Source of the DNA: the human T2T-CHM13v2.0 reference genome, Homo sapiens
Length of the DNA stretch: 64,000 nt
Direction of reading: 5' to 3'
NCBI GenBank assembly: GCA_009914755.4
Contig: CP068257.2
Span: forward strand, 35,648,001-35,712,000
In this document: in pieces, positions 1-64,000 of the stretch
Position numbering within the stretch: position 1 is the stretch's first letter
How the letters are laid out: each line of letters opens with the position of its first letter
Notes under the pieces: model-generated
What the model was told of the DNA's origin: nothing
What the model saw: only the letters and a program-made list of their open reading frames with translations
Database searches by the model: none
Position numbers and translations under genes: made by a program

Positions 1-69
1 GGGGTACCGAATGTCAGTCGTCTCATTAGTTGTGATGGTGAAGTGGTGTTCATTGTTGTGCTTGGCTAG

Positions 70-477
<408 letters not shown>

Positions 478-1079
478 TAAGAGCAGGCTTCCCTAGTTGT
501 CTTTTGCCCAAAAGTTTTAGCATCCATCCAAGACCTTTGTCTGAAATTCTGTCCCTTTTGAGATTACTTTGCATTAATATGACCAACCACTGCGATCAAT
601 TTTATTCCAAAGAGTGTTGGGGCTGTGATTTCAACCCTAGCTGCACATATATCACCGGTATCGCTGGGAGTGGAACCCAAGCAATCATATTTTAAAATTC
701 TCCAGGATGACTGATTCTGATGTAGAGTAAGGGTTGAGATTCCCCGAGTTAGAGGAACCTTACAACACCCTCATTTGCAAATAAGGACACTGAGGCCCAA
801 GGAGGTTAAATGACTGGCCAATGTCACAAAACCTGTTAATGGCATAGTCAAGATTTTACTTTTTTATACTTGCATTTTAATAGCCATTCCTTTGTGTCAG
901 TCGAAGAATAAAACCAGAAAAAGCAGTAACTTTCGTAGTATGTTAGTATGTTGTTAAAAGTGACTACCATCTAATATATGCTGCCGCCAGACATACCCAT
1001 TTCTGCTTCCAAGGTTTGTTTTAGCTTTCGTTCATTAGACCTTTGCGGTCACCTTAGGAGAGAGGGAAAGGGGAGTTTG

Positions 1080-2400
1080 GTCGTCAACTCCTCCGCCCTC
1101 AGCGCTCACTGAGGGAGCTCAAGCCTGAGAACCCAACACCGCCGGGTGTTCAAGGGGCCAGATGGGAAGAGGCGCAGCCCCGGAGCTGGGCGCCTGCCCT
1201 GCACGTCCCGCAGATGCGGCGGCGGCGCCTGCCCTGGGGCCTCCTCGCAGGGCAGCCAGCCTCGCGCGGGAAGCACCTGGCGGGGACGCACCTGGCGGGA
1301 ACGCACCCACCTTGGCGGAGACGCACCTGGCGGGACAGCCCTGCCCCGCCTAGGGACGCGGGACGTGCGCAGAGCGATGGAGACAGCGGAACCTGCAGAC
1401 CCGCCCAACCCCACCTCCATCCCCACCCCCAGCCCCCACTTACCCCGGCGTGATAAACTTTATTCGCTCTTTTAATCTTGATGTCCAGGGCGGTCCCCAT
1501 CTCCAATTCTCCGCAGCAGCCGCCACTTCCGGCTGCGCGTGACCCCAGGGAAACAAGGGGCGCCTCCCCGCTTCGTTCTGGGCCCCGCCCCTTTCCCTCT
1601 CTGCCGGCAGTGGCTCACGTGACCTCGCAGCGGCGTCGCACACACTCCCTAGCTCCGAGGGGCGAATGCCCCACGCCTTCCTCCTTCCGGCACAAGAGCC
1701 GGCCTTAGTGCGGGCCGAAGCGCTGTCACGGTTCACCCCGCCCCCTCTGGGCGTGAAAGACGGGGCCAAGCTAGCCCCACCCCTTCCGTAGGGACAGTCT
1801 TACGCCGGAAATGCTCCTTTGCTGTCCGGGTTAGCGGAGGGAGGGAGGAACGGCTCTCCCCGCGTGCCCCGCGGCTGGAGGCGGAGCCGAGCCTGTCTGT
1901 CGGTTGCAGCCTGCGCAGGAAGGATGACGCTCCCGTCAGGCTGTGCGGCGCAGACGGTCGCCCAATGGAGTTGTCTTTCAGGAGGTTTTAACTTGGTAAT
2001 GCCTGCCCTCCTCAAATGTCCTTAGTCTCCTCAACTCTAGCCCTCCACCGCTTTCTCCCTGGGGTTCTGAAGAGCCGGCGCCCCCTTGTCTGTCTGCGGC
2101 CAGGCGCCGCACCCTGCCCTTCCCGCGGGAGCGGTTCCGGTCACCCTCAGGGGTGCGGCCCCTGCGTGCTAGTCCTGCAAAGCGCTGATTGGCCGGCGGC
2201 TCGGTTGCCTCGCGTCCCAGCGCCAGCTGGGCCTAGGGCCAAGGTCTCGGGAAGCGCCGGGTGACCTCGCTCCTCTCGGAGCCGCGGGCGCTGGGTCACC
2301 CGCCAGCCGGGCTCCGCGGGCCGCGAGGGATTGTGGGTGTTCCCCAGGCGCGTGTCCTGGAACCGGGTGTTAAATATTCAGATCCGTGCGCCCCGCGCTG
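1080..2400. promoter_or_regulatory. CpG island / putative TATA-less promoter, possibly bidirectional
   Basis: CpG and GC density is very high. GC boxes include ggccccgcccc (~1579), caccccgcccc (~1733) and ccccacccc (~1775). There is a CACGTG E-box in tcacgtgac (~1616). CCAAT/ATTGG boxes are cgcccaatgg (~1959) and gctgattggccgg (~2176). ETS-like sites are cttccgg (~1680) and gccggaaatg (~1804). Candidate splice donors are GG|GTAAGTGGGGG on the minus strand (~1437-1446) and TTG|GTAATG on the plus strand (~1996-2003). I cannot determine the gene identity. Confidence 0.6.
1271..1336. repeat. 15-bp GC-rich tandem repeat (acgcacctggcggga-like, ~4 copies)
   Basis: The sequence reads aagcacctggcgggg acgcacctggcggga acgcacccaccttggcggag acgcacctggcggga and lies inside the CpG island. 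Confidence 0.7.
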
Positions 2401-2690
2401 AAGGGTGGAAAGGCACGGCCCCCAGGCTCTGGGGCTTGGAGATTGGTTGCAAATGAAAGACTGAAAGCTGGAGTGAATCTGCCTATTATTTTTATTCCCA
2501 GCAACAGCTGACCCCAGATACAGTTTGTGGGGGTGGGGGGCGTTACTGCAGGGCAGGGCAGTGCACTGTTAACGTACTTCGTTTATTGAGTTAAAATCTC
2601 TTGTAAATGTTATAAATGAGGATTTTGCCAATAAGCAGAAGGTCAAATTTCATTTTGACAAATGATTTAATTAAATAATGCGGTGAAAAG

Positions 2691-3100: not shown

Positions 3101-3469
<369 letters not shown>

Positions 3470-4744
3470 TCCAATCGCTATCCTTTTAAATCTTTTCCAT
3501 CCCTCACTCACACCTTAGATGATACCTTAACTTTCTGGTCCATTTGAGTTACCAAAAATCAGACCGTGTTAAAGTGTCGATCTCATGTCTCAAGTGGGAC
3601 CCTAAATCCCTTAGTGTGAGTGGGAAGGTGCAAAGCGTGGTTCTGGCATGCAGACACTTCTCAACGTACCTCTGCAAGGCCTGGCTTCTGTGTTGAGATA
3701 AGGAAGAGGAGAGAAAATGAGACAAATATCTCTTAACTAGCCACTGCTGAATTTTCTTAGTTGATTCCTGCCTCTCTGGTAACTGTCTCGTTTAAAATTC
3801 CTTTCGTGGGGTACAGATGGGGAGGTCGGGTGGGGCCTTCTCCCTGCCGCACAGTTCCATGGGAGATCTTTTCCATCACCCGCCCCCGCCGCCGTCAGCA
3901 CCGGGCAGTACACTCAGCCTCTCAGGCAAGATCACTCAGGACCATTTATCTTCCGCATAGGAAGAATTTGACCCAGGAGAAATACACATCTTTGCCACAC
4001 AAAAGGGCTGGACTGAAGACCACCCCGTGGCTACTCCTCTCTCCCCTGCTATATCCCTCTTCAATTTTGTTGTTCCCCCTTGCCATACAGACAGGGATAA
4101 GTCAGCAAGAGTGCTGGAGGAACAGATCTGCAGGCAACAAATAGAATACCAGACTCCCCTTCCAGCAGGCCCTCTGATACCTTGGAGAGATTGTCCTATG
4201 TCCTTCCCAGCTACATCACTTCCCACCAGAAACACCGTCCTCCGCAATACCGACTGCCTCCTTTCATTCCTTCCCCTGCCTTCCTGTATAGATTGAGGAG
4301 AGGACTGGGGAAGTATTTGGTGGAAGCGGGGCCAGATCTGCAGCTTTTTATTAAGCCCTGGGGGAAGTGGCCCCAATTATAGGCATCTTTCATTAGGAGA
4401 TGGAGTACTATGCCTGTAGTTTTCCATTGTGAGCCTAGTGCCAATTCTGGGACAATAGTAGAGGTCCCACTAAACATCTTTAAGTGGGTGCTATGATTCT
4501 CTGCGCAGACTCTTCCTGCAGGACTGGAGGACATGTTCCCTGAGCTGCTAGGAGTATTGGTCTCAACAGTTTTCAGCTAAGTCACTCTTCAAAGCTTGCC
4601 TTTAATGAAGAAAACTGCCTTGCCCAAGGTCATTCCCCCTTCTAGGGGGCAGCCCACACTTGACAATTAATCCATTTAGGATATAGAGGCCTCTCCGTTG
4701 TTCCAGTTTAGGACAACTCTGAAGGACCATTCCATATTCAAAAC

Positions 4745-5230
4745 TCCCAGTATTAGTTAAATACTGATGTGTAGCAAATTACCCCAATCTGTAGTAGCTT
4801 TAAATAACAAACGTCTCATTATGTCTGCGAGTTGGGAACTCAGGAGCAGCTTCCCTGGGTGTTCCTGGCTCAAGGTGTCAGATTCTTGCAGTTGTCTGAA
4901 GGCCTGTTGTCGGCTGGAAGATCCAGTTCCAAGATGGCTCCCTCACATGGCTGAGGTTGGGAGCACTCACTTCCACTCCACAGGCTGCTTGAGAAGCCTC
5001 ACAGTATGGCAGCTAGCTTCTCCCAGACCAGTCAATCAAGAGAGAGTGCAATTAGGGAGCTGCAATGCCCTGTGAGGCCAAGTATCTGAAGGACATCTAC
5101 TTTTCTTCTCTTCATCAGAAGACAGTCACTAAATCCCACTAATTCCATTTGGGAAGGGGAATTTAGCTCTACCTATGGAAGGGAGGGTCAAAGAATTTGA
5201 GGACATATTTTAATCCACTACGCTCCGCAT
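4745..5230 (+). mobile_element. MaLR/ERVL-type LTR fragment (MLT1-like)
   Basis: The sequence gtagtagctttaaataacaaa...ggaactcaggagcagcttccctgg...caaggtgtcagattcttgc...cagttccaagatggctccctcacatggctg...agtgcaattagggagctgc matches the characteristic MLT1-family motif series. The family call is from memory. Confidence 0.5.
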
Positions 5231-5764: not shown

Positions 5765-6810
<1,046 letters not shown>

Positions 6811-7716: not shown

Positions 7717-7884
7717 AGGAGGAGGAAGAGGGAGAAGGAGGAGGAGGGGGAGGGGAGAAAGAGGAGGATGAGGAGGGGTGGAGAAGGAGGAGGGGGGAGG
7801 GGAGAAAGTAGGATGGGGAGGGGCGGAGAAGGAGGGGAGGAAATGGAGGAAGAGGGAAGGGGTACAGGAGGAGGAGGAGGAAAG
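7717..7884. repeat. GA-rich polypurine minisatellite ((GGA)n / GGAGGGG-rich, ~45-bp higher-order unit x3)
   Basis: The tract is about 168 bp and almost purely purine on the plus strand (ggaggaggaagagggagaaggaggaggagggggaggggagaaagaggagg...). It contains many G-runs of at least 3. Confidence 0.85.
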
Positions 7885-9144
7885 GTTTTATTCACTCATT
7901 CACTCTGCCTTTGTATACACTTGAGTTCCATAACAAAAGAAGAGAAGATAAATTTACAAAGTAGGATAATATTTTTGAAATATTAAGCTGAAGTATTTTT
8001 AAAATTCCTTGTCATTCCCAGCAGGTGCCCCTCAACTCTCTCTCCATCAAGTTTATACCCTGAAGCAAAAAATGTGTGTTGAAGAGCACTTTGCCAAAGA
8101 TCTGAAACATGGTTTGGTCTAGAGGAAGGGGAATAGAATGAGAAGAGCAGAAGTAGCTCCTGGGGTGGGATCCAGCTGTATTTCATGCTTGGAGTCAACG
8201 TCCCAGTTGGGGTTAGAAATGCGCAGGGCAATAGAAAACATGACAGGAAACTCGGAGCTCGAGAGAGAAGAATCAAATGATTAAAATAACCCAAAAGTTA
8301 GAGGTATGGGCTGAGTCAGCCAAGGGGGAGTCCCGGCTCTTTCTAGCGGTCCCTCTAGTGTGCTATTGCCTGTGCAGAGATGGGATTTTGAGACACTCCA
8401 GCTGGGACGTTGGCAGATAGGCAAGGGACATGGCATTTTTGAACCATATGCCTCTCTCCATCCCAAGTAGAATGCTTTTGGGGAAAGGTAAGAAGGAGAC
8501 TGAGGATGTGAAAAGAGAATTCTAAAACACTGGCTATCAGCTGGGTTCCAACTGAATAATGAGACTGATTTTCTTCTCCCCTGTCCTCAGCAGAAATGGT
8601 TACTGGGGAGCTAAACTGGGTTAATTTATAGAGAAATGAAGACTGGTACTTTTTTGGTCATCTATATGTATGCCTGTAAATTTTGAAACAGCCTACGTAT
8701 GCAAAAATCAATAGGCATTACGATTTAACAGCAACAACCAGTTAGAAAATAAAATGAAGATACAGACTGTATTCTCAATAGCAATCAAAATATAAAATAT
8801 TTGGAGTAATTTGAATGTGATCTATGTTTTAGTTACATGAGAAAAGCTATAAGGCTGAATTAAGAAATGTGAAATATGGCAAAATAGAGATTTACAGTAT
8901 TTCTGAATAGAAAATCTATTTTAAAATGTCCAGTTGTATACAATTAATTTTTAGAGCTAATTACTCTCAATATCCTAATAAAATTTTTCATGAGGAAATT
9001 CAATGAAATTCTGTTAAAATTCTTCTGAAAAAATAAAGAAGTATTTTGAAATGACATCTCTTTAAAGAGCTAATTGTAGGAGAAAGGTTTTTACTAGGCA
9101 TAAAATATAGTATAACTGTAAGAATTAAAAGAGCATCATCCTGA

Positions 9145-9540
<396 letters not shown>

Positions 9541-9544
9541 TATT

Positions 9545-10075
9545 TATTTTTTATTGTATATATTCAAGTTGTATATGAAATTTCAATAAATGATAAAAGA
9601 GGCATTGCAAATCTATAAAGAACAGGGGATTACTCAGTAAATGATATTACACTAAATGCTATTTAGAAGAAAAATTCATTTAGATTTTACCATAACAGCA
9701 TATATCAAAAAAAAGGAAGAGAGAGAAGAAAAGACCTAGTTGGATTAAAGAGTTCAGGAAATAATAAAACAAGTTAAGGCACAGACTTAATGAAAAGTAT
9801 GGAAAACTTATATGAGAAAAACTACTAAAGTCTTGCATGAGACGTCACAGTAGATTTGAACAGAAGGCAAACATACCATTATCTTGGATAGGAAAGTGTA
9901 ACATCATAAAAATGTTAAGTCTCCTCTGCTTAATTTATATATTTAAATTAACACTAACAAAAATATTAATTTATTTATGGAGCCAGGCAGGTTGATTATA
10001 AAATTTATTTGGAATAATAAATAAGGGAGAATAGCCAGAACAAATCTCAAAAGAGATGAACCGGTGGGGGGCAGG
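9545..10075 (+). mobile_element. Ancient L1 (L1M-like) ORF2 fragment
   Basis: Translation gives ...[64 protein letters not shown]. This resembles L1 ORF2 ...[32 protein letters not shown]...KFIWK.KRPRIAK with frameshifts and stops. Confidence 0.65.
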
Positions 10076-10166
10076 GGGAGGAGGAGGAGCCTAGGACGTG
10101 TCATACAGAGAGTGGCACCTGGGACTCATTTTAGCCAGTGGAAGGCAGTGAGAGTTCTGCACCTAA

Positions 10167-15658: not shown

Positions 15659-16214
15659 CAGAAATCAAAGTAAATAACCTTAAACCAAACACAGATGAAT
15701 TGGCTTTCCTAACTCAACCCAGGATGGAGTTGTTTTCAGTTGAGTTACATATACAAAGTCAATTTACCAGTTTCCTAATAGTCTTCTTACCATTTATAGG
15801 GGAGACATCTAAGTTATGTCAATAGGCAAATCAACGAATACTACATCACAAACAGTTTCAATATTTAAGAGGCAATAAGAGAAGGAAAGCTTGTGGAAAC
15901 CACACATTTTATTTATTACCTTCATTTCATTCTCACAGCCTAGCAATAATTCAGAGCTAACGTGTGGCAACACATCTCCACTTTCCTGGTTTGTGCGTTT
16001 GCTTCCTCCTTGCCTGTCCCAGTGCGGGGCGTCGTTTGCGATGGGGGTCCTGCCCTGTGCTGACTGTAAACCTCTTGAAGCACATCAACAATGCGCCAGC
16101 ACGTCCTGAGAGTTTGTGGACTGAAGTTATTCCAAATTCTAAAATGTAAATCCACTAAAAGAAAGTATAAGAACTGTAGCCTGAACTCGCCAAAAACAAG
16201 TCCCCCAAATGTGT

Positions 16215-62759: not shown

Positions 62760-63037
62760 TTAATCTTCATTTGATGCATTGTCATCATCTGCTCTTCAGG
62801 GTTTCACTATTTGCACAATAAATACTTAGATATGTGACTGGACTGAAACTATTCTAATCTATTCAGAGTGTTTTGGAATCAAACCCTTTATAATGTTTAT
62901 TAATTTCCCACTTGCCTTTTTCTAAACATACAATGTATTGTTTTTTTAAAGTTTATGTAAAAGCTTTCCAAAAATGTTATGAGAAGATATGCACATTCCC
63001 TACTACTGGGATTATTTGAAATTATTTTGGAGGTTCC

Positions 63038-63086
63038 AATCAATGCTATAGATATATATAAAACATATATCTATAGCATTGATTGA
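63038..63086. repeat. Perfect 21-bp inverted repeat (hairpin/cruciform capable) with 7-nt spacer
   Basis: The left arm caatcaatgctatagatatat (63038-63058), the spacer ataaaac and the right arm atatatctatagcattgattg (63066-63086) are exact reverse complements. Confidence 0.9.
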
Positions 63087-63905
63087 TTAATATATTATAT
63101 ATTAATATATTATATTATAAATATATATATTAAATAATATATTTAATATAATATATATAATATAATATACAATATAATATAATATATAATATAATATAAT
63201 ATATAATATATTATATAATATAATATATAATATATTATATAATATAATATATAATATATTATATTATATATAATATATCATATGATATATATTATATTAT
63301 ATATAATATATCATATGATATATATTATATGTATTATATATATTATACAATATATTATATTTAATATATATATTATATAATATATTATATAATATATATA
63401 TTATATTATATATATAATATAATATATAATATAATATATATTATAATATATATTATATTATATATATAATATATATTATATAATATATTATATTATATAT
63501 AATATATTTTATATATATTATGTAATATATTATAATATATATATAATATTATATTATATATATAATATAATATATTTTATATTATATATTATATATTATA
63601 TAATATATATAATATATATAATATATTATATATTTTATATAATATATAATATATAATATATAATATATAATATATTAATATATATAATATATTTATATAT
63701 TATATAAATATATATTTATATACTATATTTATATTTATAATAATATATTTATATTTATAATTTATATTTATATTTATATTATAAAATATTATAACTTAAT
63801 ATTTATATTTATAAATTTATATTTATAATAATATACAATTATATGTATAATTATATATTATATGTATTATACATTAACATATATTTTATATATATATTTC
63901 ACATA
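63040..63905. repeat. ~860-bp AT-rich complex simple repeat / minisatellite (TA-, ATATA- and TTTATA-based units)
   Basis: The block is almost entirely A/T. Examples are ...taatatattatattataaatatatatattaaataatatatttaatataatatatataatataatatac... and ...tttatatttataatttatatttatatttatattataaaatatt... It has many short self-complementary TA runs and two 33-bp direct repeats (atataatatatcatatgatatatattatat, x2). Confidence 0.9.
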
Positions 63906-64000
63906 TGTATGTGAAAGAAATTATTTGTGCATGACAGTGTTGTCTACCCAGAAAATCTGAAAAAATAAACTGAAAACCTATTGGAACCAGCAGTAGAGGT

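What the first reader, a model, noticed from the sequence alone, without database searches (positions are those of the whole stretch)
1080..2400. CpG island with promoter motifs and candidate first-exon splice donors on both strands (possible bidirectional promoter)
About 1.3 kb of very CpG-rich sequence carries Sp1-type GC boxes, a palindromic CACGTG E-box (~1616), CCAAT at ~1959, an inverted CCAAT (gctgattggccgg) at ~2176 and ETS-like CCGGAA/CTTCCGG motifs. It has no TATA box, which is the classic housekeeping-gene architecture. A near-consensus 5' splice site GG|GTAAGTGGGGG is present on the minus strand at ~1437-1446, so a minus-strand first exon would end there. A weaker donor TTG|GTAATG is on the plus strand at ~1996-2003. 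This is the only place in the window where I would expect a real transcription start. I cannot name the gene from sequence alone.
Basis: partly seen in the sequence, partly recalled or inferred. Interest (0 to 1): 0.5.

Follow-up and report, generated by a model that had tools for sequence, protein, structure and literature searches.

The report
VPS26C (DSCR3) CpG-island promoter, exon 1
This CpG-rich stretch is the ordinary, already annotated promoter and first exon of the primate endosomal-sorting gene VPS26C (DSCR3) on the minus strand; the proposed second exon on the plus strand looks like a chance match.

Summary
The CpG island is real. Window 1080-2400 has GC 68.4%, CpG o/e 0.81 and 124 CpGs, against 42.6% and 0.34 for the whole window; the criteria-passing run is 951-2500.

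The gene can be named. The minus strand reads ATG (1500) plus 19 codons, MGTALDIKIKRANKVYHAG, then GGG|GTAAGT (GT at 1443-1442). The peptide equals residues 1-19 of human VPS26C/DSCR3 (PDB 8p0x_P). This exon and donor are at the same place in seven other mammals.

Conserved promoter elements:
- an ETS site 31 nt upstream of the ATG (7/7 placentals)
- an E-box, GTCACGTGA(C), 86-122 nt upstream of the ATG (7/8 species, including platypus)
- further ETS sites
- a minus-oriented CCAAT box, GCCAATCAGCG (6/7)

There is no TATA box. Rabbit mRNA contigs start inside the E-box, which maps to about window 1613-1619.

The plus-strand donor TTG|GTAATG is at chance level (one equal-or-better site per 133 nt) and absent in 0/6 aligned orthologues, as is the plus-strand CCAAT at 1962. 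No protein-coding partner is called within 10 kb upstream in seven mammals. A generic unstable antisense RNA or an unannotated lncRNA cannot be excluded.

A solo LTR12 at about 16.5-18 kb is a second possible TSS in the window. Verdict: ordinary and already known.

The parts
951..2500 (.). CpG island (criteria-passing run).
   Evidence: 1550 bp, GC 65%, o/e 0.78. The core 1080-2400 has GC 68.4%, o/e 0.81 and 124 CpG; the island spans -1000 to +550 relative to the ATG, nearly the same extent as in Otolemur, Bos, Equus and Phoca.
1444..1500 (-). VPS26C (DSCR3) exon 1 coding part: ATG plus 18 further codons (19 in all), MGTALDIKIKRANKVYHAG, phase 0.
   Evidence: One search gives the translation; the peptide is identical to residues 1-19 of PDB 8p0x_P, Vacuolar protein sorting-associated protein 26C; the same 57-nt exon starts the gene in 7 other mammals.
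1438..1446 (-). 5' splice site GGG|GTAAGT (GT at 1443-1442); start of intron 1.
   Evidence: score 9.48 on an approximate matrix; only 25 sites in 128 kb of strand score as well or better. GTAAGT is invariant in 7/7 placentals; platypus has GTGAGT.
1..1443 (-). Beginning of VPS26C intron 1. The rest of the gene lies beyond the left end of the window.
   Evidence: Follows from the donor position; the window down to about 420-550 aligns with orthologous intron 1.
1501..1620 (-). Inferred 5' UTR and main TSS zone of VPS26C.
   Evidence: nine rabbit mRNA contigs (L002-L010) extend 66-107 nt upstream of the ATG. The longest start inside the E-box, which maps to window about 1613-1619. The TSS position in the window's own species is inferred, not shown.
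1525..1532 (-). ETS site CCGGAAGT, 31 nt upstream of the ATG.
   Evidence: One search gives the position. MGGAAGT or the GGAAG core is present at -30/-31 in 7/7 placentals; it is absent in platypus.
1613..1622 (-). E-box GTCACGTGAG in gene orientation (TCACGTGA core at 1615-1622). This is a bHLH-LZ site of the CLEAR/USF type.
   Evidence: TCACGTGA occurs once against 0.00 expected. GTCACGTGAC is perfect in Otolemur, rabbit, Bos and platypus, 9/10 in the window, Psammomys and Equus, and lost in Phoca. It always lies 86-122 nt upstream of the ATG.
1684..1690 (-). Second ETS site, CCGGAAG. The adjacent GC box is conserved in other mammals but degenerate in this window.
   Evidence: CCGGAA is kept in 6/7 species. 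The neighbouring CCCGCCCC is present in 5 other species; the window has CCGGCTCT.
1783..1812 (-). Pair of inverted ETS-like sites (TTCCGG ... CGGAAG).
   Evidence: TTCCGG is kept in 6/7 species and CGGAAG in 5/7 (CGGA in 7/7).
1582..1591 (-). Sp1-type GC box (10-mer match).
   Evidence: GC boxes recur here in the orthologues, but their exact positions drift.
1735..1744 (-). Sp1-type GC box, GGGGCGGGGT.
   Evidence: GGGGCGGGG is kept in 3 of the other species (Otolemur, Equus, Phoca) and is near-matched in rabbit and Bos.
2184..2194 (-). Distal CCAAT box GCCAATCAGCG (NF-Y type) in the orientation of VPS26C, about 690 nt upstream of the ATG.
Evidence: CCAAT is kept in 6/7 placentals (Bos has CCCAT).
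2235..2385 (.). Distal conserved blocks at the upstream edge of the island; role unknown (upstream regulatory module or alternative TSS region).
   Evidence: mean identity is 4.5-4.8 of 6 species in 2240-2280 and 2320-2360.
1268..1334 (-). Intron-1 tandem repeat carrying CAGGTG (E-box / CAG|GTGCGT donor-like) 3 times.
   Evidence: period 15, 4.1 copies; donor-like scores of 9.2-9.8; 1-4 CAGGTG copies, about 15 nt apart where there are several, lie at +141 to +222 from the ATG in all 7 placentals.
1993..2001 (+).
   Evidence: score 3.52, with one equal-or-better site per 133 nt; no GT at the aligned position in the 6 orthologues.

Best explanation
Window 951-2500 is the CpG-island promoter, 5' UTR, first coding exon and start of intron 1 of VPS26C (DSCR3). 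VPS26C is the VPS26-like subunit of the Retriever endosomal recycling complex. It is transcribed on the minus strand, and the rest of the gene runs off the left end of the window.

It works as a TATA-less, constitutively open promoter. Conserved ETS sites (GABPA/ELK/ELF class), a conserved bHLH-LZ E-box GTCACGTGA(C) (USF, MiT/TFE or MAX-type factors), GC boxes and a distal NF-Y CCAAT box recruit the transcription machinery. Initiation occurs about 100-120 nt upstream of the ATG. The 19-codon exon 1 is spliced at GGG|GTAAGT.

Any plus-strand output is most likely a short, unspliced, early-terminated upstream antisense RNA rather than a second gene.

Shown: the island, the exon identity, the donor and the motif conservation. 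Inferred: which factors bind, the exact TSS in this species, and the fate of antisense transcripts.
For: - Island statistics.
- Exon 1 peptide: MGTALDIKIKRANKVYHAG equals residues 1-19 of PDB 8p0x_P VPS26C (the 20th residue of that query came from memory). The full recalled human sequence is 100% identical to that chain.
- Orthologues: the gene starts with the same 57-nt exon followed by GTAAGT in Otolemur, rabbit, Psammomys, Bos, Equus and Phoca, and by GTGAGT in platypus.
- Donor strength: 9.48.
- Conserved footprints: ETS at -31 in 7/7 placentals; E-box in 7/8 species including platypus; ETS at 1684 in 6/7; CCAAT at 2188 in 6/7.
- Rabbit mRNA contigs begin up to 107 nt upstream of the ATG, at the E-box.
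- The minus strand is G-rich from 1800 down to 1401, as expected downstream of a minus-strand TSS.
- No TATA box.
- The island boundaries are conserved across placentals.
Against: - No transcript, CAGE or chromatin data for the window's own species could be consulted. The TSS position is transferred from rabbit RNA-seq contigs, whose 5' ends may be incomplete.
- Factor assignments rest on motif matches only.
- GC-box and CCAAT counts are not above what the island's composition gives by chance.
- The conserved distal module (2184-2385) lies about 570-770 nt upstream of the inferred TSS. The proximal-promoter model does not explain it.
Confidence: 0.93

Rival explanations
1. This is a true bidirectional promoter. 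A second, stable, spliced plus-strand gene (most plausibly a lncRNA) starts in the island, and its first exon ends at the TTG|GTAATG donor at 1996.
For: - Divergent initiation is the default at mammalian CpG-island promoters (established knowledge).
- A conserved distal module with an NF-Y CCAAT box sits about 570 nt from the sense TSS. NF-Y and ETS/GABP sites are typical of bidirectional promoters (established knowledge).
- There is a mild plus-strand G skew at 1801-2000.
- lncRNA annotation could not be consulted.
Against: - The donor scores 3.52, and one equal-or-better site occurs every 133 nt.
- The donor and the plus-strand CCAAT at 1962 are absent from all 6 aligned orthologues.
- The plus strand has no donor scoring 7 or more before 3450, which lies inside an Alu; PAS hexamers occur at 2670 and 2890.
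- Plus-strand GC skew turns to -0.32 at 2001-2100 and stays near 0 afterwards.
- No protein-coding gene is called in the 10 kb upstream flank in 7 mammals.
- No paper names a VPS26C or DSCR3 divergent or antisense transcript.
- The plus-strand ORF 2016-2264 is not on record in the assembly collection.
Confidence: 0.1
2. The distal conserved module (CCAAT at 2188, blocks 2235-2385) is an alternative upstream promoter of VPS26C itself. It would initiate on the minus strand around 2100-2130 and give a longer 5' UTR or an alternative leader.
For: - The CCAAT box is in the VPS26C orientation and conserved in 6/7 species.
- NF-Y boxes usually sit 60-100 nt upstream of a TSS (established knowledge). 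That would place a TSS near 2100-2130, far from the proximal TSS.
- I recall, unverified, that human annotations give two gene ends for DSCR3 about 430 bp apart.
Against: - No rabbit or mouse-like mRNA contig extends beyond about 107 nt upstream of the ATG.
- There is no minus-strand G skew between 2100 and 1800.
- There is no direct transcript evidence.
Confidence: 0.25
3. The island is an orphan or silent CpG island, or a processed-pseudogene fragment carrying a VPS26C-like start, not the functional gene's 5' end.
For: Only 19 codons of the gene are inside the window, so the rest of the gene could not be checked here.
Against: - The exon is followed by a consensus donor and an intron, not by exon 2 sequence, which rules out a processed pseudogene.
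- About 2.7 kb spanning the promoter and intron 1 is collinear with the VPS26C loci of Otolemur, Equus and Phoca, and further upstream blocks align as well.
- CpG o/e of 0.81 indicates a germline-unmethylated island.
Confidence: 0.02

Closest known systems
Human VPS26C (DSCR3) promoter and exon 1, chromosome 21q22.13 (location from memory)
   Same: - Exon 1 peptide identical to human VPS26C residues 1-19.
- Primate repeat content: Alu and LTR12.
- The exon/intron structure and upstream region are collinear with 7 mammalian VPS26C loci.
   Different: Nothing found that differs. Species and assembly could not be verified because no primate genome was searchable. The six aligned non-anthropoid placentals have Ser or Thr at residue 4, where the window and human have Ala (platypus also has Ala).
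TATA-less housekeeping CpG-island promoters driven by ETS/GABP, Sp1, NF-Y and USF-type E-boxes
   Same: No TATA box; ETS sites close to the TSS; GC boxes; a CCAAT box; an island of about 1.5 kb covering the TSS, exon 1 and the start of intron 1; G-rich non-template strand downstream of the TSS.
   Different: The CCAAT box lies unusually far from the inferred TSS (about 570 nt). GC boxes are not over-represented relative to composition, and one conserved GC box is degenerate in this window.
Bidirectional gene-pair promoters (head-to-head genes with TSSs less than 1 kb apart, e.g. the neighbouring PIGP/TTC3 pair, from memory)
   Same: CpG island, ETS and NF-Y motifs, no TATA box.
   Different: No partner gene: no conserved plus-strand donor, early PAS hexamers, and no called protein-coding gene within 10 kb upstream in 7 mammals.
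CLEAR elements (GTCACGTGAC) of TFEB/TFE3 target promoters of lysosomal and endosomal genes
   Same: The E-box with its flanks matches the CLEAR core 9/10 in the window and 10/10 in Otolemur, rabbit, Bos and platypus. It lies within about 120 nt of the ATG, at the inferred TSS, of an endosomal trafficking gene.
   Different: - No binding or response data are available.
- The same sequence is also an optimal USF1/2 site and an acceptable MAX/MYC site.
- Only one copy is present, whereas many CLEAR genes carry several.
- No paper in the library links DSCR3 or VPS26C to TFEB.

Membership tests
CpG island (Gardiner-Garden & Frommer; Takai & Jones) | Length >= 200 bp (>= 500 bp in the stricter version) | tested here: met
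CpG island (Gardiner-Garden & Frommer; Takai & Jones) | GC >= 50% (>= 55%) and CpG observed/expected >= 0.6 (>= 0.65) | tested here: met
   GC 68.4%, o/e 0.81 for 1080-2400; GC 65%, o/e 0.78 for 951-2500. The whole window is 42.6% and 0.34.
CpG island (functional sense) | Unmethylated in the germline and somatic tissues; H3K4me3-marked | not testable with these tools
   Only indirect evidence: the retained CpG density implies low germline methylation. The chr21 methylation paper mentions only an internal DSCR3 amplicon.
VPS26C (DSCR3) gene, 5' end | Encodes the N-terminus of VPS26C | tested here: met
   19/19 residues identical to PDB 8p0x_P; that chain is the full 297-aa human protein.
VPS26C (DSCR3) gene, 5' end | Orthologous exon/intron structure (57-nt coding exon 1, phase-0 GT donor) | tested here: met
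   identical structure in 7 other mammals.
VPS26C (DSCR3) gene, 5' end | Collinear flanking sequence with orthologous loci | tested here: met
   window 3164-461 aligns as one block with Otolemur. Equivalent blocks align in Equus, Phoca and Bos, and further upstream blocks keep the same order.
VPS26C (DSCR3) gene, 5' end | Remaining exons downstream on the same strand | not testable with these tools
   The gene body lies beyond window position 1.
Bidirectional promoter (two head-to-head genes, TSSs < 1 kb apart) | A second gene on the opposite strand starting within 1 kb | tested here: not met
   No protein-coding gene is called within 10 kb upstream in rabbit, Otolemur, Bos, Equus, Phoca, Psammomys or platypus. 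No Rfam family is found in the island. lncRNA annotation is not available here.
Bidirectional promoter (two head-to-head genes, TSSs < 1 kb apart) | A functional, conserved first-exon splice donor on the opposite strand | tested here: not met
   score 3.52, chance level; 0/6 orthologues keep it.
Bidirectional promoter (two head-to-head genes, TSSs < 1 kb apart) | Plus-strand TSS signal (CAGE, GRO-cap) | not testable with these tools
   No expression data are available for this species.
TATA-less broad housekeeping promoter | No TATA box; ETS, Sp1 and NF-Y sites near the TSS | tested here: met
   no TATA box; conserved ETS sites, E-box and CCAAT box.
TATA-less broad housekeeping promoter | Dispersed TSS cluster; ubiquitous expression | not testable with these tools
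   The only hint is that rabbit contig 5' ends scatter from 66 to 107 nt upstream of the ATG. Ubiquitous DSCR3 expression is from memory.
CLEAR-network (TFEB/TFE3) target promoter | GTCACGTGAC-type element close to the TSS | tested here: met
   9/10 match in the window and 10/10 in four orthologues, located at the inferred TSS.
CLEAR-network (TFEB/TFE3) target promoter | TFEB/TFE3 occupancy and induction on TFEB activation | not testable with these tools
   No ChIP or expression data. Literature searches found nothing.

The most novel reading that the evidence does not exclude
The single GTCACGTGA(C) element at the inferred VPS26C start site has been held within 86-122 nt upstream of the ATG from platypus to primates. 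It could be a genuine CLEAR element. That would make the Retriever subunit VPS26C a direct TFEB/TFE3 target and would couple Retriever-dependent cargo recycling to lysosomal and nutrient stress signalling, rather than the site serving only constitutive USF binding. A lesser possibility is that the sense-oriented LTR12, 15 kb upstream, supplies a primate-specific alternative VPS26C promoter when derepressed.
Probability: 0.2. Interest if true: 0.3.

Novelty: already known. Interest (0 to 1): 0.07.

Why it matters
It matters little beyond correct annotation. The finding resolves to the promoter and first exon of a well-known, ubiquitously expressed chromosome-21 gene.

The useful outcomes are:
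- The gene is named.
- The minus-strand exon call is verified.
- The plus-strand exon is shown to be a chance match.
- The promoter's conserved elements are separated from motifs that are only by-products of GC-rich composition. The conserved elements are the ETS site at -31, the CLEAR/USF-type E-box at the TSS, the distal NF-Y box, and the intronic CAGGTG cluster.

The conserved E-box gives a cheap, testable hypothesis about MiT/TFE or USF control of a Retriever subunit.

Tried and rejected
1. I tried to fetch the human locus by looking up the human VPS26C protein.
2. The Saguinus model P0047/L011 lacks exon 1 and gave only Alu matches, so it was dropped from the alignment.
3. P0101 (Castor) is not on record.
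4. I tried to recover contigs or transcripts of the window's own species by exact look-up of two window ORFs: plus 2016-2264, and minus 1150-1500 (the intron-retaining reading). Neither is on record, so there is no direct transcript evidence for either strand in this species.
5. Literature searches for a named divergent or antisense transcript (VPS26C-DT, DSCR3-AS1 and similar) found nothing. Searches for a TFEB/MITF/USF link to DSCR3 or VPS26C also found nothing relevant.
6. The DSCR3 methylation reports concern internal regions of the gene, not this island.
7. An Rfam scan found only two Alu-derived 7SL-like hits elsewhere in the window and nothing in the island.
8. Motif-count enrichment tests do not support reading GC boxes or CCAAT boxes as meaningful from counts alone.
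9. Long ORFs elsewhere in the window, including a 296-aa ORF, have no Pfam match. The 296-aa ORF is explained by a (TTTC)n tract and an antisense Alu.
10. The processed-pseudogene and orphan-island readings were rejected on the basis of the intron and the collinearity with orthologous loci.
Full report
**1. Observation**

The region is a textbook CpG island. Window 1080-2400 has GC 68.4%, 124 CpGs and CpG o/e 0.81. The whole 64-kb window has GC 42.6% and o/e 0.34. The continuous run passing GC >= 0.5 and o/e >= 0.6 is 951-2500.

The window is primate DNA:
- Rfam reports two Alu-derived 7SL-like hits.
- Tandem Repeats Finder returns an Alu consensus.
- An LTR12 element is present.

- CACGTG at 1616-1621
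- CCAAT at 1962
- ATTGG at 2188, inside gctgattggccgg
- CTTCCGG at 1526 and 1684
- CCGGAA at 1806
- five GGGCGG/CCGCCC
- no TATA box

Both splice-donor-like strings are present. On the minus strand GGG|GTAAGT has its GT at 1443-1442. On the plus strand TTG|GTAATG has its GT at 1996-1997.

**2. What it is**

Reading the minus strand from the ATG at 1500 gives MGTALDIKIKRANKVYHAG, 19 codons. This is followed directly by GTAAGT and then by G-rich non-coding sequence.

The peptide equals residues 1-19 of the PDB chain 8p0x_P, named Vacuolar protein sorting-associated protein 26C. I had appended a 20th residue, E, from memory to reach the minimum query length. My recalled full-length human VPS26C/DSCR3 sequence is 100% identical to that 297-residue chain. 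It retrieves VPS26C orthologues across vertebrates.

I fetched the genomic loci of seven orthologues: rabbit L001, Otolemur L012, Bos mutus L014, Equus asinus L015, Phoca L016, Psammomys L017 and platypus L018. In every one the coding sequence begins with the same 57-nt exon. It is followed by GTAAGT, or GTGAGT in platypus.

BLASTN shows that the window is collinear with these loci. Window 3164-461 aligns as a single block with Otolemur, Equus and Phoca. Further upstream blocks (about 3470-4900, 8300-9080 and 9540-10080) appear in the same order.

The island is therefore the promoter, 5' UTR, exon 1 and beginning of intron 1 of VPS26C (DSCR3). The gene body lies beyond the left end of the window. 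From memory, this gene lies on human chromosome 21q22.13 on the minus strand, with a gene-poor interval toward DYRK1A. That would fit the rest of the window, but I could not verify it.

**3. Promoter anatomy and conservation**

A seven-species alignment of the 1.1 kb upstream of the donor (A1) and a per-position identity profile show discrete footprints.

| Element | Window position | Conservation |
|---|---|---|
| ETS site CCGGAAGT | 1525-1532, 31 nt upstream of the ATG | MGGAAGT or GGAAG core in 7/7 placentals; absent in platypus |
| E-box GTCACGTGA(C) | 1613-1622 | 7/8 species, 86-122 nt upstream of the ATG |
| ETS site CCGGAAG | 1684-1690 | 6/7 |
| Inverted ETS-like pair | 1783-1812 | TTCCGG 6/7; CGGAAG 5/7 |
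| GC boxes | around 1582-1591 and 1735-1744 | recur, but positions drift |
| Distal CCAAT box GCCAATCAGCG | 2184-2194, VPS26C orientation | 6/7 |
| Two further distal blocks | 2235-2385 | conserved |

Details on two of these:
- The E-box is perfect (GTCACGTGAC) in Otolemur, rabbit, Bos and platypus. It matches 9/10 in the window, Psammomys and Equus. It is lost only in Phoca.
- The ETS site at 1684-1690 sits next to a GC box that is conserved elsewhere but degenerate in this window.

The island's extent, -1000 to +550 relative to the ATG, is almost the same in Otolemur, Bos, Equus and Phoca.

Against 300 Markov-1 simulations of the island, GC boxes (5 vs 4.3 expected), CCAAT (3 vs 1.3) and CACGTG (1 vs 0.24) are unremarkable. 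Conservation is what separates the functional candidates from composition noise.

**4. Where transcription starts**

I could not obtain transcripts for the window's own species.

Nine independent rabbit RNA-seq contigs carrying the full VPS26C coding sequence extend 66-107 nt upstream of the ATG. The longest begin inside the E-box (CGTGACGCCACTG...). This maps to window about 1613-1619. A mouse-like contig begins 39 nt upstream of the ATG.

The minus strand is markedly G-rich from 1800 down to 1401. Plus-strand GC skew there runs from -0.09 to -0.53. This is the pattern expected downstream of a minus-strand CpG-island TSS (established knowledge on GC skew at CGI promoters).

I therefore place the main TSS zone at about 1530-1700 on the minus strand. 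This is an inference.

**5. The plus-strand exon and bidirectionality**

I scored donors with an approximate human 5' splice-site matrix whose frequencies I recalled from the literature.

| Donor | Score | Sites scoring as well or better |
|---|---|---|
| Minus strand, GGG\|GTAAGT | 9.48 | 25 of the 6297 GT sites on both strands |
| Plus strand, TTG\|GTAATG | 3.52 | 961, about one per 133 nt |

Further evidence against a plus-strand exon:
- In the alignment, neither the plus-strand donor nor the plus-strand CCAAT at 1962 is present in any of the six orthologues.
- The plus strand has no donor scoring 7 or more until 3450, which lies inside an Alu.
- The plus strand meets ATTAAA at 2670 and AATAAA at 2890.
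- The sense direction, by contrast, has the real donor plus four further strong donor-like sites within 150 nt.
- Plus-strand G skew is weak (+0.13 to +0.17 at 1801-2000) and reverses to -0.32 at 2001-2100.
- In seven mammals no protein-coding gene is called within the 10 kb upstream of VPS26C.
- No paper in the library names a divergent or antisense VPS26C/DSCR3 transcript.

The donor and PAS asymmetry between the two directions is the known U1/PAS signature. It distinguishes productive sense transcription from short upstream antisense RNAs (established knowledge).

I conclude that a classical bidirectional gene pair is not supported. Generic, unstable antisense transcription is likely but unproven. 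An annotated lncRNA cannot be excluded with these tools.

The conserved distal module with the sense-oriented CCAAT box is the one feature the simple model leaves unexplained. It may be an upstream regulatory module or an alternative upstream VPS26C TSS.

**6. Mechanism**

The best-supported reading is a constitutively open, TATA-less housekeeping promoter.
- ETS-family factors act at the conserved CCGGAAG(T) sites.
- A bHLH-leucine-zipper dimer acts at GTCACGTGA(C).
- Sp/KLF factors act at the GC boxes.
- NF-Y acts at the distal CCAAT box.

Initiation occurs about 100-120 nt upstream of the ATG. U1 snRNP recognises GGG|GTAAGT.

The E-box with its flanks matches the CLEAR consensus of TFEB/TFE3 targets. 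It is equally a strong USF site. Which factor uses it is not testable here, and the literature searches found no link.

**7. Comparison, novelty and score**

This is a member of a thoroughly known class, and in fact an annotated locus. The novelty rating is 'already known' and interest is low.

The only mildly new points are two. First, the TSS-proximal CLEAR/USF-type E-box is deeply conserved, from platypus to primates. Second, a cluster of CAGGTG motifs in intron 1 is conserved.

**8. Other observations in the window**

The second CpG-rich patch, at about 16000-17800, contains a solo LTR12 (ERV9 LTR) at about 16545-17967 on the minus strand. It carries 41-nt repeats with CCAAT, the GATA motif TCTGTATCTAGCT and GTGGGGA, all in minus orientation. 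This matches the published description of LTR12 (PMC11853044).

The LTR12 points toward VPS26C from about 15 kb upstream.

The longest ORF in the window (296 aa, 18335-19225) is a chance product of a (TTTC)n tract and an antisense Alu.

Noticed in passing
window 16545-17967 (minus strand): A solo LTR12 (ERV9 LTR). It has 41-nt U3 tandem repeats at about 17000-17300 carrying CCAAT (3 copies), TCTGTATCTAGCT (2 copies) and GTGGGGA, with AATAAA at 16898 and 16984, all on the minus strand. It accounts for most of the window's second CpG-rich patch. It points toward VPS26C from about 15 kb upstream, so it is a potential cryptic alternative promoter or enhancer.
   Followed up: partly
window 1268-1334 (intron 1 of VPS26C, minus strand): A 15-bp tandem repeat, CGCCAGGTGCGTCCC, carries CAGGTG three times. 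CAGGTG is a class-I bHLH/ZEB/SNAI E-box and also reads as CAG|GTGCGT, a strong donor-like site. All 7 placentals have 1-4 copies at +141 to +222 from the ATG, about 15 nt apart where there are several; platypus lacks it there. Its role is unknown: intronic enhancer or silencer, or decoy U1 sites.
   Followed up: partly
window 1395-1437 (minus strand, just after the exon 1 donor): A G-run-rich stretch, GGGGGCTGGGGGTGGGGATGGAGGTGGGGTTGGGCGGG. It includes an insertion of about 24 nt that is absent from the six other placentals in the alignment. It could form a G-quadruplex or act as GGG-type intronic splicing-enhancer sequence.
   Followed up: no
window 1459-1464 and 1471-1476 (minus strand, inside exon 1): The poly(A)-signal hexamers AATAAA and ATTAAA lie inside the 57-nt coding exon, 15-30 nt upstream of the 5' splice site. 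AATAAA is kept in Otolemur and Psammomys but not in the rabbit, Bos, Equus, Phoca or platypus codons. They are presumably suppressed by U1 binding.
   Followed up: no
window 2361-2378: An AT-rich near-palindrome, TGAATATT(C/T)A, sits at the distal edge of the island in otherwise GC-rich sequence. It is kept as ATGAATATTCA in Bos, Equus and Phoca and partly in Otolemur. The binding factor is unknown.
   Followed up: no
window 9256-9402 (-) and 48052-48199 (+): Rfam Metazoa_SRP hits just above the gathering score. They are Alu elements, not 7SL genes. Many more Alus are scattered through the window, for example at 125-416, 3180-3470, 5985-6299 and 33755-34390.
   Followed up: partly
window 63090-63897: About 800 bp of AT-only simple repeat (ATATATT/TATATAATATAT units). 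GC is 7% over 63001-64000.
   Followed up: no
window 7717-7881: A purine-rich (AGG)n/GGAGG low-complexity tract with a strong local GC skew.
   Followed up: no
window 18335-19225 (+): The longest ORF in the window (296 aa, ATG start). It has no Pfam match. It runs through a (TTTC)n tract and an antisense Alu, so it is a chance ORF.
   Followed up: yes
L018 9850-9910 (platypus VPS26C promoter): Platypus has two CACGTG boxes, GGTCACGTGGG at -141 and GGGTCACGTGACGG at -97, and many GC boxes. It lacks the ETS and CCAAT sites of placentals. The E-box is therefore the oldest element of the promoter.
   Followed up: partly
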